Virus record (IMG/VR): IMGVR_UViG_2671181085_000003
DNA from: a virus
Taxonomy: Duplodnaviria > Heunggongvirae > Uroviricota > Caudoviricetes
DNA: 19,641 nt
Direction: 5' to 3' (one strand)
Below, piece after piece: positions 12,993 to 19,349 of the stretch. A program made the translations under genes and the position numbers. Each line of letters begins with the position of its first letter. The stretch's first letter is position 1. The notes under the pieces were generated by a model that searched no databases, was not told the origin of the DNA, and saw only the letters and a program-made list of their open reading frames with translations.

Positions 12993-13195
12993 AACCTCAC
13001 TCCCAGCGGACGACGGCGACGGCGGGTTGTCCCCAGTACCGACTCCGCATCATTGATCGCACGGTTAAGCTCATCCAGAGAAGCCGCCGTATATTCAATT
13101 CTGCGACCATCTTTCTGGACAGACACCACCCGTTTACCGGTTAATAAATCAAGGCGCGCCTGACGCAGCGCCTGCAGTTCAGCGACTGTAACCAT
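12989..13195 (-). CDS. W: Head-tail joining protein W
   Basis: 68-aa ORF, same length and position as lambda gpW. Confidence 0.85.
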   Translation of the reverse strand: MVTVAELQALRQARLDLLTGKRVVSVQKDGRRIEYTAASLDELNRAINDAESVLGTTRRRRRPLGVRL

Positions 13196-15107
13196 TCACT
13201 CCTCCGGACAGCTTCGCTGCCAGTTCTTTCAGGGTTGGCCGGGTCGTCTCTTCTTCCCGGGATTTTGCCAGTACAGCCAGATCAAGCTGCCAGCGTTGCA
13301 CGGACACACGTAATGCCGCGTAGGCATACACCAGGCAGTCCAGCGCTTCGTTACGCCGCTTTTTGTTATCCCACAGCAGACGCATCTTTCCTTTTTCCCA
13401 CTTCTCCACCAGCTCTTCCGCCACCAGTTGCTGCGCCTCTGTCTGCGAAAAAATCTCCGGATCATCAGGAAAACGGATGGCATACGACGTGGCTTCATCC
13501 GCAGGCGTGGGATCGGCTTTCATACGGGCATAGAGAATTTCTTTTGCAGTGTCCGTCCCCACTTCACACAGATACACGCCCCGCTGATTGCGGGTTTTTG
13601 GCATGGTGATCACCGGCTTGCCATAGACAGATGCGCCTTTTACCGGCAGCACCTGGAAAACACCGTGTTTTTTTGATCTCTGATAAACGATTTCACCATC
13701 GATCCCCCCGGTGTCCCAGCAGACACGGGAAATGGTCATTTCAGTGCCATCCGCATGGCGGTATTTTTTGTTGATCGCCGCATCCACACGTAACAGCGTC
13801 TCTTCCTCATCTGGACGTCCCATAATGATGATTTTATCCACCAGAAAGGCTTCCTCTCCCGGAGCCCATCCCCAGACATACATCTCAAAACGGTTTCGCT
13901 GCGAGTCAATGCCCGCCGTCAGATAAACCACCCGGGCAGGCACCGCCGCCGTGTAACGCACAACCTTATCCATCAGTACCTGGTGATCGAGTTTTTCGCC
14001 CACGGCCTCTTCCCAGGTCTCGCCCAGCGTGGTGTTCACAAAAGTTTTCAGGCCGTTGGGATCTTTCAGTGCATCCAGCCAGTCATAGACTATCTGTACC
14101 CAGGTGGTGAACGGACTGTACGCCGTCCAGATATGGAATGTGATGGAGCGCGGCGGCGGAATTTCATTACCCGCAGCGCTGAAAAACGTCAGACCGTCAC
14201 GGGTCCACATCCCCGTGTTTTCACAGATCCACCGCCCGTTGCTCTGGTCAAGCTCAGACTGATGGATCACGCAGCCATGATGTTCACAGAGGTAGAAAAC
14301 GCTTTCGGGGCTGTCCTTCTCCCATTTAAGGCCAAAAGGCGTGGATTCATCGCCAAATTTCAGATACTGCTCCTCCCCACAGTGCGGGCAGGGCACATAA
14401 AAACGCATGAAATGCGCCGACTCGTTGGCCGCTTTTTCGATCTGGCAGGAACCTTTTATTTTAGGCGTCGAGCCGCGAATGGATTTTGGCCATACAGAGC
14501 CCTCAATACGCTTATCCCCCAGCAGGGTTGGCGAGCCCTCTTTTTCAACATCCGGCTCGAACGAGGAAAGTTCGTCATAGCAGACCACATCCACGGATTT
14601 TTCACGGTAGTTTTTGGCGGCAGCGCCGCCCAGGCACCAGAAACCCACACCCGATGAAAAGCGTTTCAGCGTGAGGGTATTATCACGATGTTTACGTCCC
14701 AGCCAGGGAGAAAGTTTTTTCAGGCAGGGAACATCGCGAATCGTCGCCTCCACGTGAGACTTCATAAAATCTTCAGCGGCAGAATCCGTAGGCTGAAAAA
14801 GCAGACTGTTTCGGGATTTATGCTCAATAAAATACCCGGCGACTCCCAGCAACATCTTTGTATAGCCAACACGGGCAGATTTAATCAGATTAACAGTGCG
14901 GATCTGATCATTCCCCATACTGTTCATGATGGCGATCTGGAACGGCAGCGTTTTCCATTCTCCCTCACCATATGAAGATTCTTTAGGCAGATAATAATTT
15001 TGATCAGCCCATTCAGCTGGCGTCACCGGCAATGCCCTTATCAGGGGCTGTAATGCTGTTGTGACAGCGCTCATCATATTATTCAGTTGTTGCTCTGATA
15101 TATTCAT
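13179..15107 (-). CDS. A: Terminase large subunit A
   Basis: Start chosen at ATG 15107 (MNISEQQLNN...), which overlaps the Nu1 3' end by about 29 nt as in lambda; 642 aa with extended similarity to my recollection of lambda gpA (EWADQNYYLPKES, SARVGYTKMLLGV, CPHCGEEQYLKFGD, HIWTAYSPFTTWVQIV, FVNTTLGETWEE, RNEALDC). Confidence 0.9.
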   Translation of the reverse strand: MNISEQQLNNMMSAVTTALQPLIRALPVTPAEWADQNYYLPKESSYGEGEWKTLPFQIAIMNSMGNDQIRTVNLIKSARVGYTKMLLGVAGYFIEHKSRNSLLFQPTDSAAEDFMKSHVEATIRDVPCLKKLSPWLGRKHRDNTLTLKRFSSGVGFWCLGGAAAKNYREKSVDVVCYDELSSFEPDVEKEGSPTLLGDKRIEGSVWPKSIRGSTPKIKGSCQIEKAANESAHFMRFYVPCPHCGEEQYLKFGDESTPFGLKWEKDSPESVFYLCEHHGCVIHQSELDQSNGRWICENTGMWTRDGLTFFSAAGNEIPPPRSITFHIWTAYSPFTTWVQIVYDWLDALKDPNGLKTFVNTTLGETWEEAVGEKLDHQVLMDKVVRYTAAVPARVVYLTAGIDSQRNRFEMYVWGWAPGEEAFLVDKIIIMGRPDEEETLLRVDAAINKKYRHADGTEMTISRVCWDTGGIDGEIVYQRSKKHGVFQVLPVKGASVYGKPVITMPKTRNQRGVYLCEVGTDTAKEILYARMKADPTPADEATSYAIRFPDDPEIFSQTEAQQLVAEELVEKWEKGKMRLLWDNKKRRNEALDCLVYAYAALRVSVQRWQLDLAVLAKSREEETTRPTLKELAAKLSGGVNGYSR

Positions 15108-15588
15108 CGAGTAAATCCGGTAATTTATCCCCCGCCCGCGCACACTGATTTGCCCCCTTCGCAATAAGGGTTTTCAGATGGTCAAGATGGCGCGGTGTTA
15201 AATCAGGAAACTGTCGCTGCATGGATAAAGGGATGGAATCAAGCGTACTGGATAACGCCATTGCCAGCTTACTGAGGGCAAAAATACAGAACCCGGTGTC
15301 AATAAGTTTTCCTTTTGACACCTCATTTTTTAACTGCTGTGTAACAGCCTGTTCCGCTGTCAGTTCCCATCTAGCAATAAGCAATTTCTCCTCATAGTCG
15401 TCTTCGCTATCGCCATCAGGCACATCGTTTTTACTTCTCCTCAGATACGATATGTAAAAATCGCGCCAGGCATCCAGATCCAGTTGCCCTCGCTTATTCG
15501 ATATCGGAGCACCCGGCAATTTCTGCAATCTGCGAAGCTGGCGATCGGTCAGACTTAAATGCCTGGCAACTTCAGTCTGCGTAGCCAC
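15079..15588 (-). CDS. Nu1: Terminase small subunit Nu1
   Basis: 169-aa ORF with a GTG start. The C-terminal two thirds resemble lambda Nu1 (TGFCIFALSKLA...LSMQRQFPDL..RHLDHLK); the N-terminal HTH region differs from lambda. Confidence 0.85.
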   Translation of the reverse strand: MATQTEVARHLSLTDRQLRRLQKLPGAPISNKRGQLDLDAWRDFYISYLRRSKNDVPDGDSEDDYEEKLLIARWELTAEQAVTQQLKNEVSKGKLIDTGFCIFALSKLAMALSSTLDSIPLSMQRQFPDLTPRHLDHLKTLIAKGANQCARAGDKLPDLLDEYIRATTE

Positions 15589-15635
15589 TCCTCACCTCGC
15601 AAAAACTCTCACCTCACAATCACAACAAAACAGGT

Positions 15636-15735
15636 CATGTCCGGTTCACATGCCCATTTTTTGCGCATGTCCGGTTCACAGAAGACCTGTTTTTATATTT
15701 TTCATATAGTTAACTTGCAGAGAAACCGGACATGG
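15636..15735. promoter_or_regulatory. cosB-like terminase binding region with three R elements
   Basis: CATGTCCGGTTCACA at 15636-15650 and 15666-15680 (direct, 30 bp apart) plus an inverted copy AACCGGACATGG at about 15722-15735, separated by an AT-rich stretch (15681-15720). This mirrors the lambda R1/R2-bend-R3 layout but with different repeat sequence. Confidence 0.65.
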
Positions 15736-15771
15736 ATCCCGGAAAATTTTCATAAATAGTGAAAACCCGCG

Positions 15772-15783
15772 AGGTCGCCGCCC
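15772..15783 (-). other. cosN cohesive-end site
   Basis: Minus-strand sequence GGGCGGCGACCT followed by CGCGGGTTTTC.CTATTTATGAAAATTTTCC, matching the lambda left end as I recall it, lying about 190 bp upstream of Nu1. Confidence 0.85.
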
Positions 15784-16006
15784 CGTAACGGTCTGGATCA
15801 CCGGAAAGGACCCGCCAACGACTTTCGCGTGCAGGCATTAAAAATTTTGCAGTTCCATGCCTAGTTGAAACCTCGATTTCTATAACATCCAATTTTGTAA
15901 ATTTAGATATAGCTCAACTTTTCCCAATGTTTTCAATTGTATAAAAACAATTGGCGTTACGCTATAACACTATACTTAGAATAAGTAAAGATTTTAAGGA
16001 GTTTTA

Positions 16007-17074
16007 ATGAGTCAACATCAATATTATCCACAGCTGAAATGGAAGCCTGCTGAATATGAATCTCTGATGCTTTTAGATCAAACTACGCTCTCTGGTTTTA
16101 CTCCGATCATTACCATTCCAGACATAGACTGGGATTATGAAAACGAATGCTACAAGAAGAGTTTGAGTTCTTACTTATCTGACTTCGGTATTAACCTTGC
16201 GGCATCCTGGAAAGCCAATCGTCCTGTTTTGCTGGATGTTAAATATTTAGATAAACATGGTTCGAGCCGCCATCATCCTCTAGATATGTGTATCCAAGAT
16301 GCTAGAGTAAATGGTAAGGAAATTATCCCTGTTGTTTCTCCCACATATTCAACAAACTATATACATGCTGTTCAACGCAACTTAATCAATGGGCTCGCTA
16401 TATCTATCACCCCCCAGACATGGCACCAATTCACAAGTCTGGTTAACCACTTAAATATTCATCCTAGTTTAATTGATGTAATCATTGATTTTGGAGATAT
16501 TCAAAACGCAACTGATAGTTTAAAACAACAAGCATTAAGCATGGTCAACACATTATCAGGCCAAGCTCCGTGGAGAAACTTGATTTTATCTTCAACCGCA
16601 TACCCGGCATCACAGGCAGGGATACCGCAACATCAAGTTCATCATATTCCGCGCCATGAATACGATCTTTGGATGTACGTAGTACAGAATTTTAGCAATG
16701 GAAGAACGCCAAGTTTTAGTGATTATCCCACCGCTAGCTCTACCATTACGAGCGTAGACCCACGCTTCATGTCTCAGTATGTCTCAGTGAGATATTCGAA
16801 CGATACCTCATGGATCTTTGTAAAAGGTACCGCAGTTAAAGGAAATGGATGGGGCCAAACTAAAAACTTATGTACTACCCTTGTTAGTTCGCCAGAGTAT
16901 CAAGTCTTTGGCTCCAAATTTAGTTGGGGGGATGATTACATTTACCAAAGATCATTAGGCGCTAACAAATCTGGCGGCTCTAAAGAATGGCGTAAAGTTG
17001 CACATACGCACCATATTACGTTAGTCGTGAGACAGCTTTATTGGTTGGCGCAGACTCAGCCTGCCAAGCCTTAA
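16007..17074 (+). CDS. Hypothetical protein, 355 aa, no recognisable motif (accessory island gene 1)
   Basis: ATG preceded by AAGGAG with about 5-nt spacing; about 38% GC in a sample versus GC-rich flanks; opposite strand to all phage late genes. Confidence 0.7.
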   Translation: MSQHQYYPQLKWKPAEYESLMLLDQTTLSGFTPIITIPDIDWDYENECYKKSLSSYLSDFGINLAASWKANRPVLLDVKYLDKHGSSRHHPLDMCIQDARVNGKEIIPVVSPTYSTNYIHAVQRNLINGLAISITPQTWHQFTSLVNHLNIHPSLIDVIIDFGDIQNATDSLKQQALSMVNTLSGQAPWRNLILSSTAYPASQAGIPQHQVHHIPRHEYDLWMYVVQNFSNGRTPSFSDYPTASSTITSVDPRFMSQYVSVRYSNDTSWIFVKGTAVKGNGWGQTKNLCTTLVSSPEYQVFGSKFSWGDDYIYQRSLGANKSGGSKEWRKVAHTHHITLVVRQLYWLAQTQPAKP

Positions 17075-17636
17075 CTTTCCAGCCTACGCGTTTCTTTAAG
17101 GCTGTTCTGACTTCAAGCCTGAGATTCGCCATTGGAATATTTTCCGCAATAATATTCCATAACTCAAATCGGGGCTTGCTTTTGATTCCTTTGGAATAGC
17201 CCCATCGTTCAAGTACGTCGATACATTCATCTTTCCAAAGCAATTGAGCGAGCATCAATGTGTCATGGTTTCGATTAAGCTTTTCTCCACGCATGTGCTT
17301 TATAAGAATGGCGCCTTTTGACCCAACAGAAACCGTTTTAACGCCCCACCAACCTGGGATTAACTTTAATGCTCCCTCAAGATGTTTCTCAGCTACGACA
17401 AGAGTAACCTTGTCCATTACAGAAGAATAATGCTTGATTTGAAGAGGCAAACGCTCCAAAGAGTCATATTCACTTTTGAGCTCGTACCCGTGTATAACAC
17501 CATTTATTACAGCAATGTCTGCTCTACTGGCGCCAAGGGATATGGAAAATTCATCGACCACAAGGCAGTCTGGATCTAAATGCGATTCTTTCAAAAGCTT
17601 ATGATGCACCGCGAACCTAACATCTTGATCTTTCAT
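17016..17636 (-). CDS. Hypothetical protein, 206 aa, predicted PD-(D/E)xK-fold nuclease-like (accessory island gene 2)
   Basis: ATG preceded by AAGGAG with 5-nt spacing; N-terminal region reads CLVVDEFSISLGASRADIAVINGVIHGYELKSE, a hydrophobic-D ... E-x-K arrangement typical of PD-(D/E)xK nucleases. AT-rich. Confidence 0.7.
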   Translation of the reverse strand: MKDQDVRFAVHHKLLKESHLDPDCLVVDEFSISLGASRADIAVINGVIHGYELKSEYDSLERLPLQIKHYSSVMDKVTLVVAEKHLEGALKLIPGWWGVKTVSVGSKGAILIKHMRGEKLNRNHDTLMLAQLLWKDECIDVLERWGYSKGIKSKPRFELWNIIAENIPMANLRLEVRTALKKRVGWKVKAWQAESAPTNKAVSRLT

Positions 17637-17664
17637 GACTTCTCCTTACTCCCTCCGTTATTGA

Positions 17665-17693
17665 ATTATAGCGCACTGCATTTTACTGCATTT
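17665..17693 (-). promoter_or_regulatory. Candidate sigma70 promoter for island gene 2, overlapped by a tandem direct repeat
   Basis: Perfect TATAAT -10 on the minus strand (plus coordinates 17665-17670) about 28 nt upstream of the ATG; -35 is weak; a 10-bp element ACTGCATTT(T) occurs twice in tandem at 17675-17693. Confidence 0.4.
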
Positions 17694-17986
17694 GAGAGAT
17701 TTGACCACTTCAATCACAAAATGCTTATCTGCAGCAACAAGATTCATAGCCATACGACTATGGTGATTACCTTTTGTCTGGAAAACTGACCATTCCACGA
17801 AGATCAGATAGGTCTATAGAATCTTGGTTTGTCATAGCGTTCGCCTTACTTTGAGATGAACCTTTGCTGCATAGGAGATCAGCCCGTCAAGGCTCACCAG
17901 CACTAACTGACTACTCAAAGGCTCATTCCAAAGGGTTTGGTTCGACGTGGTTGAGTGCGCTGCGATGCGCGGTGAAATACCTGTAC

Positions 17987-18014
17987 AAAAATGCCCCGCA
18001 TCTGCGAGGCATTT
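17987..18014 (-). terminator. Hairpin terminator downstream of Rz/Rz1, possibly bidirectional
   Basis: Long inverted repeat AAAATGCC-C-CGCA-TC-TGCG-A-GGCATTTT, A-rich on one side and T-rich on the other, about 40 bp after the Rz stop. Confidence 0.55.
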
Positions 18015-18052
18015 TCCTGAAAGTCACGTATTAAATTTCAGTGAAATTAAAA

Positions 18053-18490
18053 TTATTTTAAGCACTGCGTCCTGATGTACTCCTGCAGGTAGTTGACCTG
18101 CGCGGTTATCTTGTCGATTCCACTTCGGAGACGGTAATAATTGAGTTCAGCATCTGCTGTAAGTCCTGGGCTTTCTCCATCGCCCATGCTGCTGGCTCCG
18201 GTCGTTGACTTTGCACAGGTGGCGGCGACTTGCAGGCGCTTACGCCCAGCAGAAACATCAGCACGGAGACTTTCGATAGTCGCGTTAGCATCAGCAAGCT
18301 CCTTTGTGTATCTGGCGTCAAGTTCTGCTACATCACGTTGACGCTTCTGCATGTCAGCGATGATGTACCTGGCTTTATCGCGCTGTTCTTTATAGGTAAT
18401 GGCGTTATCACGGTAATGATTAACAGCCCATGACAGGCAGACGATGATGCAAATAACCAGAGCGGAGATAATCGCGGCTACTCTTCTCAC
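18053..18490 (-). CDS. Rz: Spanin inner-membrane subunit Rz (i-spanin)
   Basis: Strong similarity to my recollection of lambda Rz ([46 protein letters not shown]). Probable GTG start at 18490 overlapping the R stop (GTGA); the ORF-track start at 18505 is TTG. Confidence 0.85.
18106..18291 (-). CDS. Rz1: Spanin outer-membrane lipoprotein subunit Rz1 (o-spanin), embedded in Rz in another frame
   Basis: ATG at 18291 preceded by AAGGAG; signal peptide with lipobox ([20 protein letters not shown]) followed by a Pro-rich segment ([13 protein letters not shown]); wholly inside Rz. Confidence 0.75.
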
Positions 18491-19020
18491 TGATCTATCC
18501 CCCAACAGGCTAATGCGCTTTCCTGGTCACGACGAATAACCTGTCCGTAGCAGTTATTTGAACGTGTGCGGCAATCACGCCCACCGTCCTTAATCCACCA
18601 GCGAATCGACTCACAGGCACCTTTACGATCACCGGCATTAAGCCGCTTATAAAACGTCGACGGGAAACACTTACCCGGGCCAATGTTGTAAGGACAGAAT
18701 GACGCAATACCCGCTTTCTGGGGTTCAGTCAGTGGCACTTTGATGTTTTTCGCCACCCATGCCAGCGCCTTATCACGCTCAATGGCGTTAACCCGGTCGC
18801 ATTTCCCCTTCGACAGCTTCATGCCAGGAATAACAGGCTTGCCATCCACCATGATGGCACCTCGGCAGATGGTCCAGATACCCGCACCATCACGGTATGC
18901 CGTGGTGTGGTTGCCTTCCTTTTCATCCAGAAACTGGTCGAGGATTTCAGGCGCAGAAGCACCTGCGGCAATCAGCGCCAGAACGGCAGCCGATAAACCA
19001 TAGCGGAGTTTCCTGCTCAT
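18487..19020 (-). CDS. R: SAR endolysin (T4-lysozyme-like GH24 fold, phage 21 R-type)
   Basis: N-terminal weakly hydrophobic Gly/Ala-rich signal-anchor-release segment ([16 protein letters not shown]); catalytic E-x8-D-x5-T spacing ([16 protein letters not shown]); resembles my recollection of R21. Confidence 0.85.
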
Positions 19021-19024
19021 CAGC

Positions 19025-19240
19025 TTACTCTCCCCGTGCCGCCTTACGCCGGTCCTCTCTGATTTTGAAATACAGGTTCGTCAGGTACGTCAGCAGACCA
19101 AACAGCAGACTCCCCAGCACGCCTATTGCCGCCCACTGAGACGGGGAAACCCTGTCCAGCAACTGCAGGAACCAGTAGCCCGTTCCCACCGCTGACGTGG
19201 TGTATGACACACCTGTTGTGATTTTTTCCATCTGGTACAT
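19025..19240 (-). CDS. S: Pinholin (phage 21 S-type), dual-start MYQM
   Basis: [15 protein letters not shown]...[51 protein letters not shown] closely matches my recollection of S21; two Met codons three codons apart; GGGAG Shine-Dalgarno. The ORF-track extension to 19333 is rejected. Confidence 0.85.
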
Positions 19241-19349
19241 ACCCCGTCTCCCGCAATCCGGAAGCTCACAACATGAAAAAGGCCGCCAGTGCTCCACTGA
19301 CAGCCTCGTGTAGTTACTCTGAGTGCCCAACAATTCCCTGTCAAACGTG

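What the first reader, a model, noticed from the sequence alone, without database searches (positions are those of the whole stretch)
15589..15800. cos site with lambda-type cosN but divergent cosB repeats and a divergent Nu1 N-terminus
The 12-nt cohesive-end sequence GGGCGGCGACCT and about 40 bp after it match the lambda left end as I recall it. The three R-like repeats in cosB (CATGTCCGGTTCACA twice, plus one inverted copy) do not resemble the lambda R sites I remember, and the Nu1 N-terminal DNA-binding region also differs while the C-terminal part is lambda-like. It is established that lambda and phage 21 share cosN but differ in cosB/Nu1 specificity, so this phage probably has a non-lambda, possibly 21-like, packaging specificity, in keeping with its 21-type lysis cassette.
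Basis: partly seen in the sequence, partly recalled or inferred. Interest (0 to 1): 0.5.

Follow-up and report, generated by a model that had tools for sequence, protein, structure and literature searches.

The report
Lambda-type cos with unstudied terminase sites
This is the DNA-packaging start site of a lambda-like E. coli prophage: it is cut at the same place as lambda, but its small terminase subunit and binding repeats are of a common, unstudied type, neither lambda's nor phage 21's.

Summary
On the minus strand the window has an exact lambda cohesive-end sequence (GGGCGGCGACCT, 15783..15772), the lambda cosQ heptamer, and an I2 spacer matching lambda at 32 of 33 bases. From bp 46 on, similarity to lambda and phage 21 falls to chance level (27% and 23%).

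That stretch holds three exact copies of ATGTCCGGTT. One (R3') points forward at bp 50-60, where lambda R3 lies. The other two (R2', R1') are inverted. An IHF-like site lies between R3' and R2'.

The small terminase subunit (TerS) aligns with lambda Nu1 and 21 gp1 only from about residue 64-73 onward. Its N-terminus is a predicted winged helix-turn-helix with a different recognition helix.

The "21-like specificity" reading is not supported. TerL is 93% identical to phage 21 gp2, but cosB, TerS and the first ~27 TerL codons form a foreign cassette.

In 12 enterobacterial relatives the sites sit at fixed positions. TerS residue 20 tracks the site sequence: Arg with ATGTCCGGTT, Asp/Asn with A[T/C]TTCCGGTT.

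About 1,136 of 5,426 complete E. coli genomes carry this cos type. It is probably a further, uncharacterised packaging specificity beside lambda, 21 and N15. No binding or packaging was tested.

The parts
15807..15813 (-). cosQ-like heptamer GGGTCCT (bp -30..-24 from the cohesive end); in lambda this is the packaging termination signal
   Evidence: Identical to lambda and 21 at the same distance from cosN. Invariant in 41 unique relatives, and sequence similarity between relatives breaks off just upstream of it.
15772..15783 (-). cosN cohesive-end sequence GGGCGGCGACCT (bp 1-12); the predicted 12-nt 5' overhang left by the staggered TerL nicks
   Evidence: Exact and unique in the window. 12/12 identical to lambda and 21. 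Cleavage itself was not tested.
15735..15771 (-). I2 spacer between cosN and cosB (bp 13-49)
   Evidence: bp 13-45 are 32/33 identical to lambda and 30/33 to 21. I2 (lambda bp 18-50) is essential and conserved in lambda-like phages (PMC4856287).
15724..15734 (-). R3' : forward copy of the core CATGTCCGGTT at bp 50-60; the predicted critical TerS site that positions TerL on cosN
   Evidence: Same position as R3-lambda, bp 50-65 (PMC9026076). bp 48-65 are invariant in 41 unique relatives. Found at cosQ+78 (+/-1) in all 12 enterobacterial loci.
15700..15712 (-). I1' : IHF-like site TAACTATATGAAA (bp 72-84) between R3' and R2'
   Evidence: Two mismatches to YAANNNNTTGATW, which is not significant on its own (119 matches in the window against 129 expected). 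It is 2 bp from where I1 lies in lambda and 21. L114, L116, L119 and L127 carry a perfect consensus at this position.
15666..15676 (-). R2' : inverted copy AACCGGACATG (bp 108-118); the predicted partner of R3' across the IHF bend
   Evidence: At cosQ+134 (+/-1) in all 12 loci. Close to R2 of lambda (bp 100-115) and of 21 (bp 107-122).
15636..15646 (-). R1' : second inverted copy AACCGGACATG (bp 138-148), 30 bp from R2' and pointing the same way; predicted accessory site
   Evidence: Detected in 4 of the 12 related loci (WIN, L001, L114, L123), and lost by a 30-bp deletion in L110. In lambda and 21, R1 points the same way as R3 (PMC4669245).
15079..15588 (-). Small terminase subunit (TerS, Nu1 homologue), 169 aa, GTG start. 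Residues 1-54 are a predicted winged helix-turn-helix; the proposed recognition helix is residues 15-22 (about 15520-15549)
   Evidence: Pfam PF07471 over residues 49-150. PHROG 57 'terminase small subunit' over the full length. 46% identical to lambda Nu1 over residues 73-164. AlphaFold model and Foldseek hits.
13179..15107 (-). Large terminase subunit (TerL, gpA/gp2 homologue), 642 aa from the MNISEQQ start; overlaps the TerS 3' end by 29 nt, much as in lambda
   Evidence: Pfam GpA_ATPase and GpA_nuclease. 93% identical to 21 gp2 and 66% to lambda gpA. The first 30 residues are only 33% identical to 21.
15026..15746 (-). Proposed specificity cassette: cosB + TerS + the first ~27 codons of TerL, with no DNA similarity to phage 21 or lambda
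   Evidence: blastn against 21 finds only 15821..15743 (cosQ-cosN-I2) and 15025..13082 (rest of TerL onward, 92.6%).

Best explanation
This is the packaging initiation and termination site (cos) of a lambda-like prophage read on the minus strand. It lies directly upstream of the prophage's own terminase genes.

Shown by sequence:
- cosQ, cosN and the I2 spacer are the pan-lambda versions.
- cosB is built on the lambda plan: R3, an IHF-like site, an inverted R2, and an extra R1.
- The repeated word is different: ATGTCCGGTT.

Inferred mechanism:
- Dimers of the 169-aa TerS bind R3' (bp 50-60) and the inverted R2' (bp 108-118) through an N-terminal MerR-like winged helix-turn-helix. The recognition helix is about residues 15-22 (DRQLRRLQ).
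- An IHF-induced bend at bp 72-84 would bring the two sites face to face, as proposed for lambda.
- R1', three helical turns beyond R2' and pointing the same way, would be an accessory site.
- The TerS C-terminus holds TerL, whose nuclease then makes the staggered nicks at cosN, leaving GGGCGGCGACCT overhangs.

Predicted specificity:
- The site word and the recognition helix differ from those of lambda (CGTTTCC[G/T]TTCT; SIRTIQNWQEQ) and 21 (C[A/G]TGTCGG; DPRTIERWQSQ).
- The phage is therefore predicted to start packaging only on its own kind of cos.
- It keeps the cut site and termination signal shared with lambda and 21.
- Arg20 of TerS is a candidate contact for the G in ATGTCCGG.

Origin: cosB, TerS and the TerS-binding N-terminus of TerL travel as one cassette, here set into a phage-21-like head module.
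For: 1. Anatomy and register with lambda and 21.

2. Position: R3 at cosQ+78 (+/-1), the IHF-like site at +101 and R2 at +134 (+/-1) in all 12 enterobacterial loci, whose TerS is 60-99% identical.

3. Protein-DNA covariation:
- Six loci with Arg at TerS residue 20 (WIN, L001, L121, L123, L125, L126) have ATGTCCGGTT at both R3 and R2.
- Six loci with Asp or Asn (L114, L116, L118, L119, L127, L128) have A[T/C]TTCCGGTT at both.
- The split does not follow overall TerS identity. Asp-type P0010 is 81% identical to the window protein, while Arg-type P0036 is 60%.

4. Wider clade: in 29 distant loci (L005-L033: Pseudomonas, Aeromonas, Azospirillum and others), most TerS proteins with the MATQxEVAxHLxLS[DE]R N-terminus have TTCCG[G/C]TTCCGGTT 15-30 bp upstream of the TerS start. 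Four loci with a divergent helix (L027-L030) lack it.

5. Footprint in 41 unique close relatives: R3' is invariant, and variable columns cluster between the sites (4/33 core against 25/71 non-core columns, Fisher p=0.011).

6. TerS N-terminus: it aligns with the lambda and 21 winged helix-turn-helix. The AlphaFold domain model has pLDDT 86. Its best fold matches are MerR-type winged HTH proteins, viral TerS DNA-binding domains and the RppC entries 6hlk and 6hn7, with TM 0.6-0.75.

7. Cassette boundaries.

8. Viability: PhiR12 phages, deposited as complete genomes with E. coli K-12 or E. coli C as host, carry the same TerS (99.4%) and the same three cores.
Against: - Nothing was tested biochemically. 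Binding of TerS to the repeats, the IHF requirement, the cut positions and the lack of cross-packaging are all inferred.
- cosB and the DNA-binding end of TerS are adjacent and inherited together. The Arg/G covariation could therefore reflect one ancestral event spread by recombination, rather than several independent ones.
- The window's own IHF-like site is no better than chance by consensus match.
- The fold-search E-values are not significant (0.09-1.3). A sequence-profile search did not reach any lambda-type TerS structure.
- The repeat shares CATGTC..GG with the 21 R boxes. N15 terminase is known to package lambda DNA despite divergent sites (PMC4669245). Partial cross-recognition therefore cannot be excluded.
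Confidence: 0.72

Rival explanations
1. One reading: cosB and TerS have phage 21 packaging specificity, so 21 terminase and this terminase would package each other's DNA.
For: - The repeat core CATGTCCGG differs from the 21 R-box core CATGTCGG by one inserted C.
- TerL is 93% identical to 21 gp2, and the lysis and head genes are 21-type.
- cosN, cosQ and I2 are shared.
Against: - In register, cosB is 23% identical to 21's.
- The shared letters sit 2-3 bp out of register. In lambda, changes of more than 1-2 bp in the cosN-R3 distance impair nicking (PMC4669245).
- R1 points the other way.
- The recognition helices share almost no residues, and the wing differs by 5 residues.
- gp1 of 21 aligns only from residue 64 on.
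- Relatives of this TerS have ATTTCCGGTT, so the 'ATG' that resembles 21 is a local variant within the TCCGGTT class.
Confidence: 0.08
2. The repeats have nothing to do with terminase. They could be operators for another regulator, or part of a hairpin or terminator that happens to lie between cosN and the TerS gene.
For: - The terminator scan reports a weak hairpin, CCGGGATCCATGTCCGG followed by a T-rich run, over R3'.
- A 10-nt inverted repeat brackets R2'-R1'.
Against: - One terminator-like hit against 0.5 expected.
- The bracketing inverted repeat is not conserved in close relatives.
- The sites keep a fixed distance from cosQ and cosN across genera, and they change together with the TerS recognition helix.
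- R3' sits exactly where R3 lies in lambda.
Confidence: 0.05
3. The site is a relic in a defective prophage: correct in sequence, but no longer used for packaging in this particular host.
For: Many E. coli lambdoid prophages are defective. Only 19.6 kb of this one is visible, and a foreign two-gene insert lies next to cos.
Against: - TerS, TerL, holin, endolysin and Rz reading frames are all intact.
- All cos subsites are intact and match those of the deposited PhiR12 phages.
- This would not change what the element is, only whether this copy is active.
Confidence: 0.12

Closest known systems
Phage lambda cos (cosQ-cosN-I2-cosB with R3, I1, R2, R1) and gpNu1/gpA terminase
   Same: - Identical 12-nt cohesive-end sequence and identical cosQ heptamer.
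- I2 is 32/33 identical.
- R3 at bp ~50-60, an IHF-like site at bp ~72-86 and an inverted R2 at bp ~108-118.
- TerS gene immediately downstream, with a short TerS/TerL overlap.
- TerS C-terminal two thirds 46% identical; TerL 66% identical.
   Different: - R word is ATGTCCGGTT, not CGTTTCC[G/T]TTCT.
- R1' is inverted like R2' and lies 30 bp from it, rather than pointing the same way as R3.
- The TerS N-terminal ~60 residues are not alignable by BLAST, the recognition helix is different, and the wing is 5 residues shorter.
Phage 21 cos and gp1/gp2 terminase (M81255)
   Same: - Identical cosN and cosQ.
- TerL 93% identical, with DNA similarity of 92.6% from window 15025 onward.
- 21-type holin and head genes.
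- R core superficially alike: CATGTCGG against CATGTCCGG.
   Different: - cosB is 23% identical in register.
- gp1 aligns only from residue 64 (40% identity).
- Different recognition helix and different R1 orientation.
- The TerL N-terminal 30 residues are only 33% identical.
Phage N15 (simple cosB) and the Monarch group (complex cosB): one TerS/R specificity occurring in two cosB architectures (Feiss et al. 2015, PMC4669245)
   Same: The same pattern appears in this TerS clade. Enterobacterial members, including the window, have a complex R3-I1-R2(-R1) cosB. Aeromonas, Pseudomonas, Azospirillum and some Escherichia/Enterobacter members have a single compact TTCCGGTTCCGGTT site just before the TerS start.
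   Different: - R3 of N15 is GAGGTTGTTGTT at bp 48-59 (PMC4669245), unrelated to TCCATGTCCGGT here.
- N15 TerS aligns only with residues 59-164.
- N15's cohesive end differs at bp 9 and 12, whereas this one is identical to lambda's.
PICI cos sites and Rpp proteins (Fillol-Salom 2019; Murialdo & Feiss 2022, PMC9026076)
   Same: Lambda-like cosQ and cosN combined with a completely different cosB read by a TerS-like winged helix-turn-helix protein. RppC structures are among the best fold matches to the modelled DNA-binding domain (6hlk TMq 0.75).
   Different: This is a complete phage terminase with its own TerL-binding C-terminus, next to full head genes. It is not a satellite that borrows a helper's TerS. 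Its cosB is tripartite, not R3-only.

Membership tests
Lambda-type cos site (lambda-like cohesive-end phages as defined in PMC4669245) | 12-base cohesive-end sequence with strong identity to lambda's | tested here: met
   GGGCGGCGACCT, 12/12. That it is actually cut to give 5' overhangs cannot be tested here.
Lambda-type cos site (lambda-like cohesive-end phages as defined in PMC4669245) | Conserved 7-bp cosQ upstream of cosN, and a conserved I2 spacer between cosN and cosB | tested here: met
   GGGTCCT at bp -30..-24. I2 bp 13-45 is 32/33 identical to lambda.
Lambda-type cos site (lambda-like cohesive-end phages as defined in PMC4669245) | Complex cosB: R3 at about bp 50-65, an IHF site, an inverted R2, and R1 pointing like R3 | tested here: inconclusive
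   R3' and R2' positions and orientations match. The IHF-like site is at the right place but is weak in this window and perfect in four relatives. R1' points the opposite way to lambda and 21 R1.
Lambda-type cos site (lambda-like cohesive-end phages as defined in PMC4669245) | Terminase nicks cosN, and packaging depends on cosB | not testable with these tools
   Needs virion end mapping and cosmid packaging assays.
Nu1/gp1 small terminase family (Pfam PF07471, PHROG 57) | Sequence membership | tested here: met
   PF07471 E=1e-18, but over residues 49-150 only. PHROG 57 E=2e-55 over residues 1-169; the N-terminal 57 aa alone score E=6e-10. No NCBIfam model matched.
Nu1/gp1 small terminase family (Pfam PF07471, PHROG 57) | N-terminal winged helix-turn-helix DNA-binding domain | tested here: met
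   AlphaFold model with pLDDT 86: helix 4-10, helix 15-22, a loop/wing, then helix 38-54. Top Foldseek hits are MerR-type winged HTH proteins, phage TerS DNA-binding domains (7lw0, 7lwr), and 6hlk/6hn7_B with TM 0.6-0.75. E-values are not significant for so small a domain. A tight dimer, as in lambda, was not tested.
Nu1/gp1 small terminase family (Pfam PF07471, PHROG 57) | C-terminal TerL-binding segment paired with a gpA-type TerL encoded immediately downstream | tested here: met
   The gene order and 29-nt overlap resemble lambda's. TerL has GpA_ATPase and GpA_nuclease domains. The TerL N-terminus varies along with TerS type. Physical binding was not tested.
Phage 21 packaging specificity | R boxes matching the 21 consensus (C[A/G]TGTCGG) in the 21 register and orientation | tested here: not met
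   5/21 identical over bp 46-66 and 34/145 over cosB. There is one extra C, a 2-3 bp offset, and R1 is inverted.
Phage 21 packaging specificity | gp1-type recognition helix (VDPRTIERWQSQ) | tested here: not met
   The window has LTDRQLRRLQK, and BLASTP gives no alignment before residue 64.
Lambda packaging specificity (lambda, 434, phi80) | R boxes CGTTTCC[G/T]TTCT and the Nu1 recognition helix | tested here: not met
   3/21 identical over bp 46-66. The helix differs. phi80 and 434 TerS align only from residue 64-73 on.
N15/Monarch packaging specificity | R3 = GAGGTTGTTGTT at bp 48-59 | tested here: not met
   The window has TCCATGTCCGGT at bp 48-59. The N15 sequence is taken from PMC4669245. 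N15 TerS aligns only with residues 59-164.

The most novel reading that the evidence does not exclude
This cosB/TerS cassette defines a fourth experimentally distinct packaging specificity among lambda-like cohesive-end phages, carried by about a fifth of sequenced E. coli genomes. Within it, a single TerS residue (Arg20 against Asp/Asn20) paired with a single base in the site (ATGTCCGG against ATTTCCGG) acts as a natural specificity switch. Co-resident prophages that share cosN and cosQ would then be kept from starting packaging on each other's DNA.
Probability: 0.45. Interest if true: 0.5.

Novelty: new member of a known kind. Interest (0 to 1): 0.35.

Why it matters
Only three packaging specificities (lambda, 21, N15) have been documented among lambda-like cos phages. 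Feiss and colleagues noted that little diversity had been seen because few examples had been studied (PMC4669245).

This type is very common in E. coli prophages. It comes with a ready-made natural experiment: matched changes in one TerS residue and one base of the site. That makes the rules of TerS-DNA recognition directly testable.

It also bears on three practical questions:
- which co-resident prophages can package or interfere with each other;
- which helper phages satellites (PICIs) can exploit;
- the design of cosmid or phage-delivery vectors with orthogonal packaging signals.

The mechanism itself is the known lambda one. The gain is a new instance and a clean specificity hypothesis, not a new principle.

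Tried and rejected
- Sequence searches of the PDB, with the whole TerS and with a 21-sequence profile of the N-terminal domain, found no lambda-type TerS structure. They gave only generic helix-turn-helix matches such as sigma factor region 4. This is uninformative for homology.
- Foldseek with the full-length model gave weak hits. The domain-only model was cleaner but still not significant by E-value.
- The IHF consensus scan of the window is at chance level. The I1' call therefore rests on position and on relatives, not on the match itself.
- A full-text search for the repeat sequence returned only unrelated primers. Two keyword searches found no description of this cos type. PMC9836094, on co-transfer in lambdoid phages, does not mention terminase.
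- A footprint test counting any variable column was not significant (p=0.23), because one 30-bp deletion allele marks many columns. Only the version requiring at least 2 sequences was significant (p=0.011).
- The terminator-like hairpin over R3' and the inverted repeat around R2'-R1' were considered as alternative functions and set aside.

Full report
**Layout of the window.** The region belongs to a lambdoid prophage read on the minus strand.
- A phage-21-type holin lies at 19333..19025, with Pfam 'Bacteriophage P21 holin S' at E=2e-32.
- A lysozyme with a signal-anchor-like N-terminus follows at 19020..18487, then Rz at 18505..18053.
- Next comes a low-GC two-gene insert (16007-17636), and then the cos region.
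- Downstream are a Nu1-family small terminase subunit (TerS, 15588..15079, GTG start) and a gpA-family large subunit (TerL, 15107..13179).

**Checking the observation.**
- GGGCGGCGACCT occurs once, exact, at 15783..15772 on the minus strand.
- I numbered bases from the first base of the cohesive end and compared in register with lambda (J02459) and phage 21 (M81255).
- bp 1-12 are 12/12 identical to both phages.
- bp 13-45, the I2 spacer, are 32/33 identical to lambda and 30/33 to 21.
- The cosQ heptamer GGGTCCT sits at bp -30..-24 as in both phages.
- From bp 46 to the TerS start, identity drops to 39/145 with lambda and 34/145 with 21, which is chance level.
- CATGTCCGGTTCACA is present twice, exact, 30 bp apart (15636-15650 and 15666-15680).
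- Its 11-nt core CATGTCCGGTT recurs inverted at 15724-15734.
- The 10-mer ATGTCCGGTT occurs three times in 19.6 kb, all in this 110-bp stretch.
- A 15-nt direct repeat exceeded all 2,000 shuffles of the region, whose maximum was 13.

**Anatomy in phage orientation.**
- R3' (CATGTCCGGTT, forward) occupies bp 50-60. R3 of lambda lies at bp 50-65, with contacts at bp 55-63 (PMC9026076).
- An IHF-like sequence, TAACTATATGAAA, lies at bp 72-84. The annotated I1 of phage 21 and the corresponding lambda sequence lie at bp 74-86.
- R2' (AACCGGACATG, inverted) is at bp 108-118. Lambda R2 is at bp 100-115 and 21 R2 at bp 107-122.
- R1' is a second inverted copy at bp 138-148. In lambda and 21, R1 points the same way as R3 (PMC4669245).
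- The IHF-like match has two mismatches to the consensus and is not significant on its own (119 matches in the window against 129 expected). By the same measure, lambda's own I1 also has two mismatches.

**The small terminase subunit.**
- BLASTP aligns only residues 73-164 with lambda Nu1 (46% identity) and 64-166 with 21 gp1 (40%).
- Pfam Phage_Nu1 covers residues 49-150.
- A multiple alignment does line up the N-termini as homologous helix-turn-helix units. The proposed recognition helix reads LTDRQLRRLQK, against ASIRTIQNWQEQ in lambda and VDPRTIERWQSQ in 21. The loop that forms the wing is five residues shorter.
- PHROG 57 ('terminase small subunit') covers the whole protein (E=2e-55), and the first 57 residues alone match it at E=6e-10.
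- An AlphaFold model of residues 1-57 (pLDDT 86) has helices at 4-10, 15-22 and 38-54.
- Its best Foldseek matches are MerR-type winged helix-turn-helix proteins and phage TerS DNA-binding domains (7lw0, 7lwr). They also include the RppC entries 6hlk (TMq 0.75) and 6hn7_B (TMq 0.70). None has a significant E-value.
- Sequence-only searches of the PDB did not reach any lambda-type TerS structure.

**Is it phage-21-like?**
- TerL is 93% identical to 21 gp2 and 66% to lambda gpA.
- At the DNA level, similarity to 21 (92.6%) begins at window 15025, about 27 codons into the TerL gene, and continues through the head and tail genes.
- Upstream of that point, the only similarity to 21 or lambda is the cosQ-cosN-I2 block (15821..15743).
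- The first 30 residues of TerL are 33% identical to 21, but 83% identical to the TerL of a Klebsiella relative that has the same TerS type.
- So cosB, TerS and the TerS-binding end of TerL form one cassette, set into a 21-like head module.
- The 21 R boxes (C[A/G]TGTCGG) share CATGTC..GG with the repeat here. They lack one C, lie 2-3 bp out of register, and belong to a gp1 whose DNA-binding end is lambda-like.
'Possibly 21-like' does not.

**Relatives and covariation.**
- TerS proteins 60-81% identical to this one were found in Klebsiella, Salmonella, Citrobacter, Enterobacter and other E. coli, and their loci were fetched.
- In all 12 loci the layout is fixed: R3 at cosQ+78 (+/-1), the IHF-like site at +101, and an inverted R2 at +134 (+/-1). 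The IHF-like site is a perfect YAANNNNTTGATW in L114, L116, L119 and L127.
- R1 is detected in four of the twelve, and is always inverted.
- The site word tracks TerS residue 20. Six loci with Arg20 have ATGTCCGGTT at both R3 and R2. Six loci with Asp20 or Asn20 have A[T/C]TTCCGGTT at both.
- The split cuts across overall TerS identity. Asp-type P0010 is 81% identical to the window protein, and Arg-type P0036 is 60%.
- Further out, 29 loci were examined: three phages (LPPA33, phiARM81ld, 705R4) and 26 genomes from Pseudomonas, Aeromonas, Azospirillum, Microbulbifer, Enterobacter mori, E. whittamii and others. They encode TerS with the same MATQxEVAxHLxLS[DE]R start.
- In most of these, TTCCG[G/C]TTCCGGTT lies 15-30 bp before the start codon. 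That places it about 55-70 bp from a cos-like end where the end can be read. The arrangement is a compact cosB like N15's.
- Four loci with a divergent helix (L027-L030) lack the motif.
- This links the TCCGGTT core to this TerS N-terminus. It is the main evidence that the repeats are TerS sites.
- Caveat: the sites and the DNA-binding end of TerS are adjacent and inherited together, so the number of independent events is unknown.

**Footprint in close relatives.**
- Eighty IMG/VR loci with 99%-identical TerS gave 41 distinct cos sequences once the window and PhiR12_1 were added.
- Similarity between them starts just upstream of cosQ.
- bp 48-65, which include R3', are invariant.
- Variable positions cluster between the sites: 4/33 core columns against 25/71 other columns vary in two or more sequences (Fisher p=0.011).
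- One locus (L110) has lost exactly 30 bp between the two direct repeats, fusing R2' and R1'. This resembles the unequal crossing-over Feiss proposed for the origin of N15's simple cosB (PMC4669245).

**Frequency and viability.**
- At least 80% of the 301-nt cos region is present in 1,136 of 5,426 complete E. coli genomes.
- Five PhiR12 phages, deposited as complete genomes with E. coli K-12 or E. coli C as host, match the cos region at 93.3% over the 85% that aligns. Their TerS is 99.4% identical, and the three cores were read in PhiR12_1.
- This suggests the arrangement supports phage growth. I could not find or read the paper describing those phages.

**What is known.**
- Feiss et al. [quoted passage not shown]
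- The R3 of N15 that they quote (GAGGTTGTTGTT, bp 48-59) is unrelated to the sequence here.
- Full-text searches for the repeat sequence and for cosB/Nu1/prophage terms found no description of this type.
- The library lacks most subscription-journal papers, so an earlier mention cannot be ruled out.

**Verdict.**
- This is a genuine lambda-type cos with the standard cut site and termination signal. Its cosB/TerS pair is of a common, apparently unstudied type.
- The mechanism is most likely the lambda one: TerS dimers on R3' and R2' across an IHF bend, positioning TerL on cosN.
- A distinct initiation specificity is predicted, and Arg20 is a candidate contact for the G that sets this sub-type apart from its ATTTCCGGTT relatives.
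- Binding, cutting and cross-packaging all remain untested.
- I rate it as a new member of a known kind, of moderate interest.

Noticed in passing
window 16007-17636 (insert spans about 15830-18050): A low-GC (0.34-0.44) two-gene insert lies between Rz and cos. One gene (16007-17074, +) matches Pfam Beta_protein PF14350 and the PADLOC models PD-Lambda-2_C and 'beta'. The other (17016-17636, -) is an sce7726-family protein (NF033832; PADLOC 'cll'). The genes are convergent, with overlapping 3' ends. The insert is absent from PhiR12_1 at this position. It looks like a candidate anti-phage defence cargo pair.
   Followed up: partly
window about 15025 (inside the TerL gene, 13179-15107): There is a mosaic junction. 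DNA similarity to phage 21 (92.6%) starts about 27 codons into TerL. The first 30 TerL residues are 33% identical to 21 but 83% identical to a Klebsiella relative with the same TerS type. This fits co-inheritance of the TerS C-terminus with the TerS-binding end of TerL.
   Followed up: yes
L110 (IMG/VR UViG_2675903621_000013), aligned to window 15646-15676: A 30-bp deletion exactly between the two direct repeats fuses R2' and R1' into one site. This looks like unequal crossing-over and would be a natural two-site cosB variant.
   Followed up: no
L005-L026 (e.g. L006 bp 54-70; L007 1475-1492): A broad proteobacterial clade of TerS (Pseudomonas, Aeromonas, Azospirillum, Microbulbifer, Enterobacter mori, E. 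whittamii) carries a compact tandem motif, TTCCG[G/C]TTCCGGTT, 15-30 bp upstream of the TerS start. A GGGTCCTT cosQ-like sequence lies further upstream. This is an N15-like 'simple cosB' version of the same recognition class.
   Followed up: partly
window 15591-15619: The Shine-Dalgarno-like element is duplicated (GTGAGGTGAG and GCGAGGTGAG on the phage strand) just upstream of the GTG start of TerS. Some relatives use ATG at the same codon and others use GTG.
   Followed up: no
window 15627-15636 and 15684-15693: A 10-nt perfect inverted repeat (AAAACAGGTC / GACCTGTTTT) brackets the R2'-R1' pair. It is disrupted in most close relatives, so it is probably fortuitous.
   Followed up: partly
L001 3056-3178 (PhiR12_1); window ORFs 15559-15759 (+), 15676-15801 (-), 15710-15892 (-): Short open reading frames run across cos. 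One is annotated as 'hypothetical protein' in the PhiR12 records and in several other phage records. These are probably annotation artefacts over a non-coding packaging site.
   Followed up: no
window 18106-18321 (-), inside Rz (18053-18505): An embedded out-of-frame ORF has a lipoprotein-like signal (…LLGVSAC) followed by a proline-rich stretch. It looks like an Rz1 spanin partner nested in Rz.
   Followed up: no
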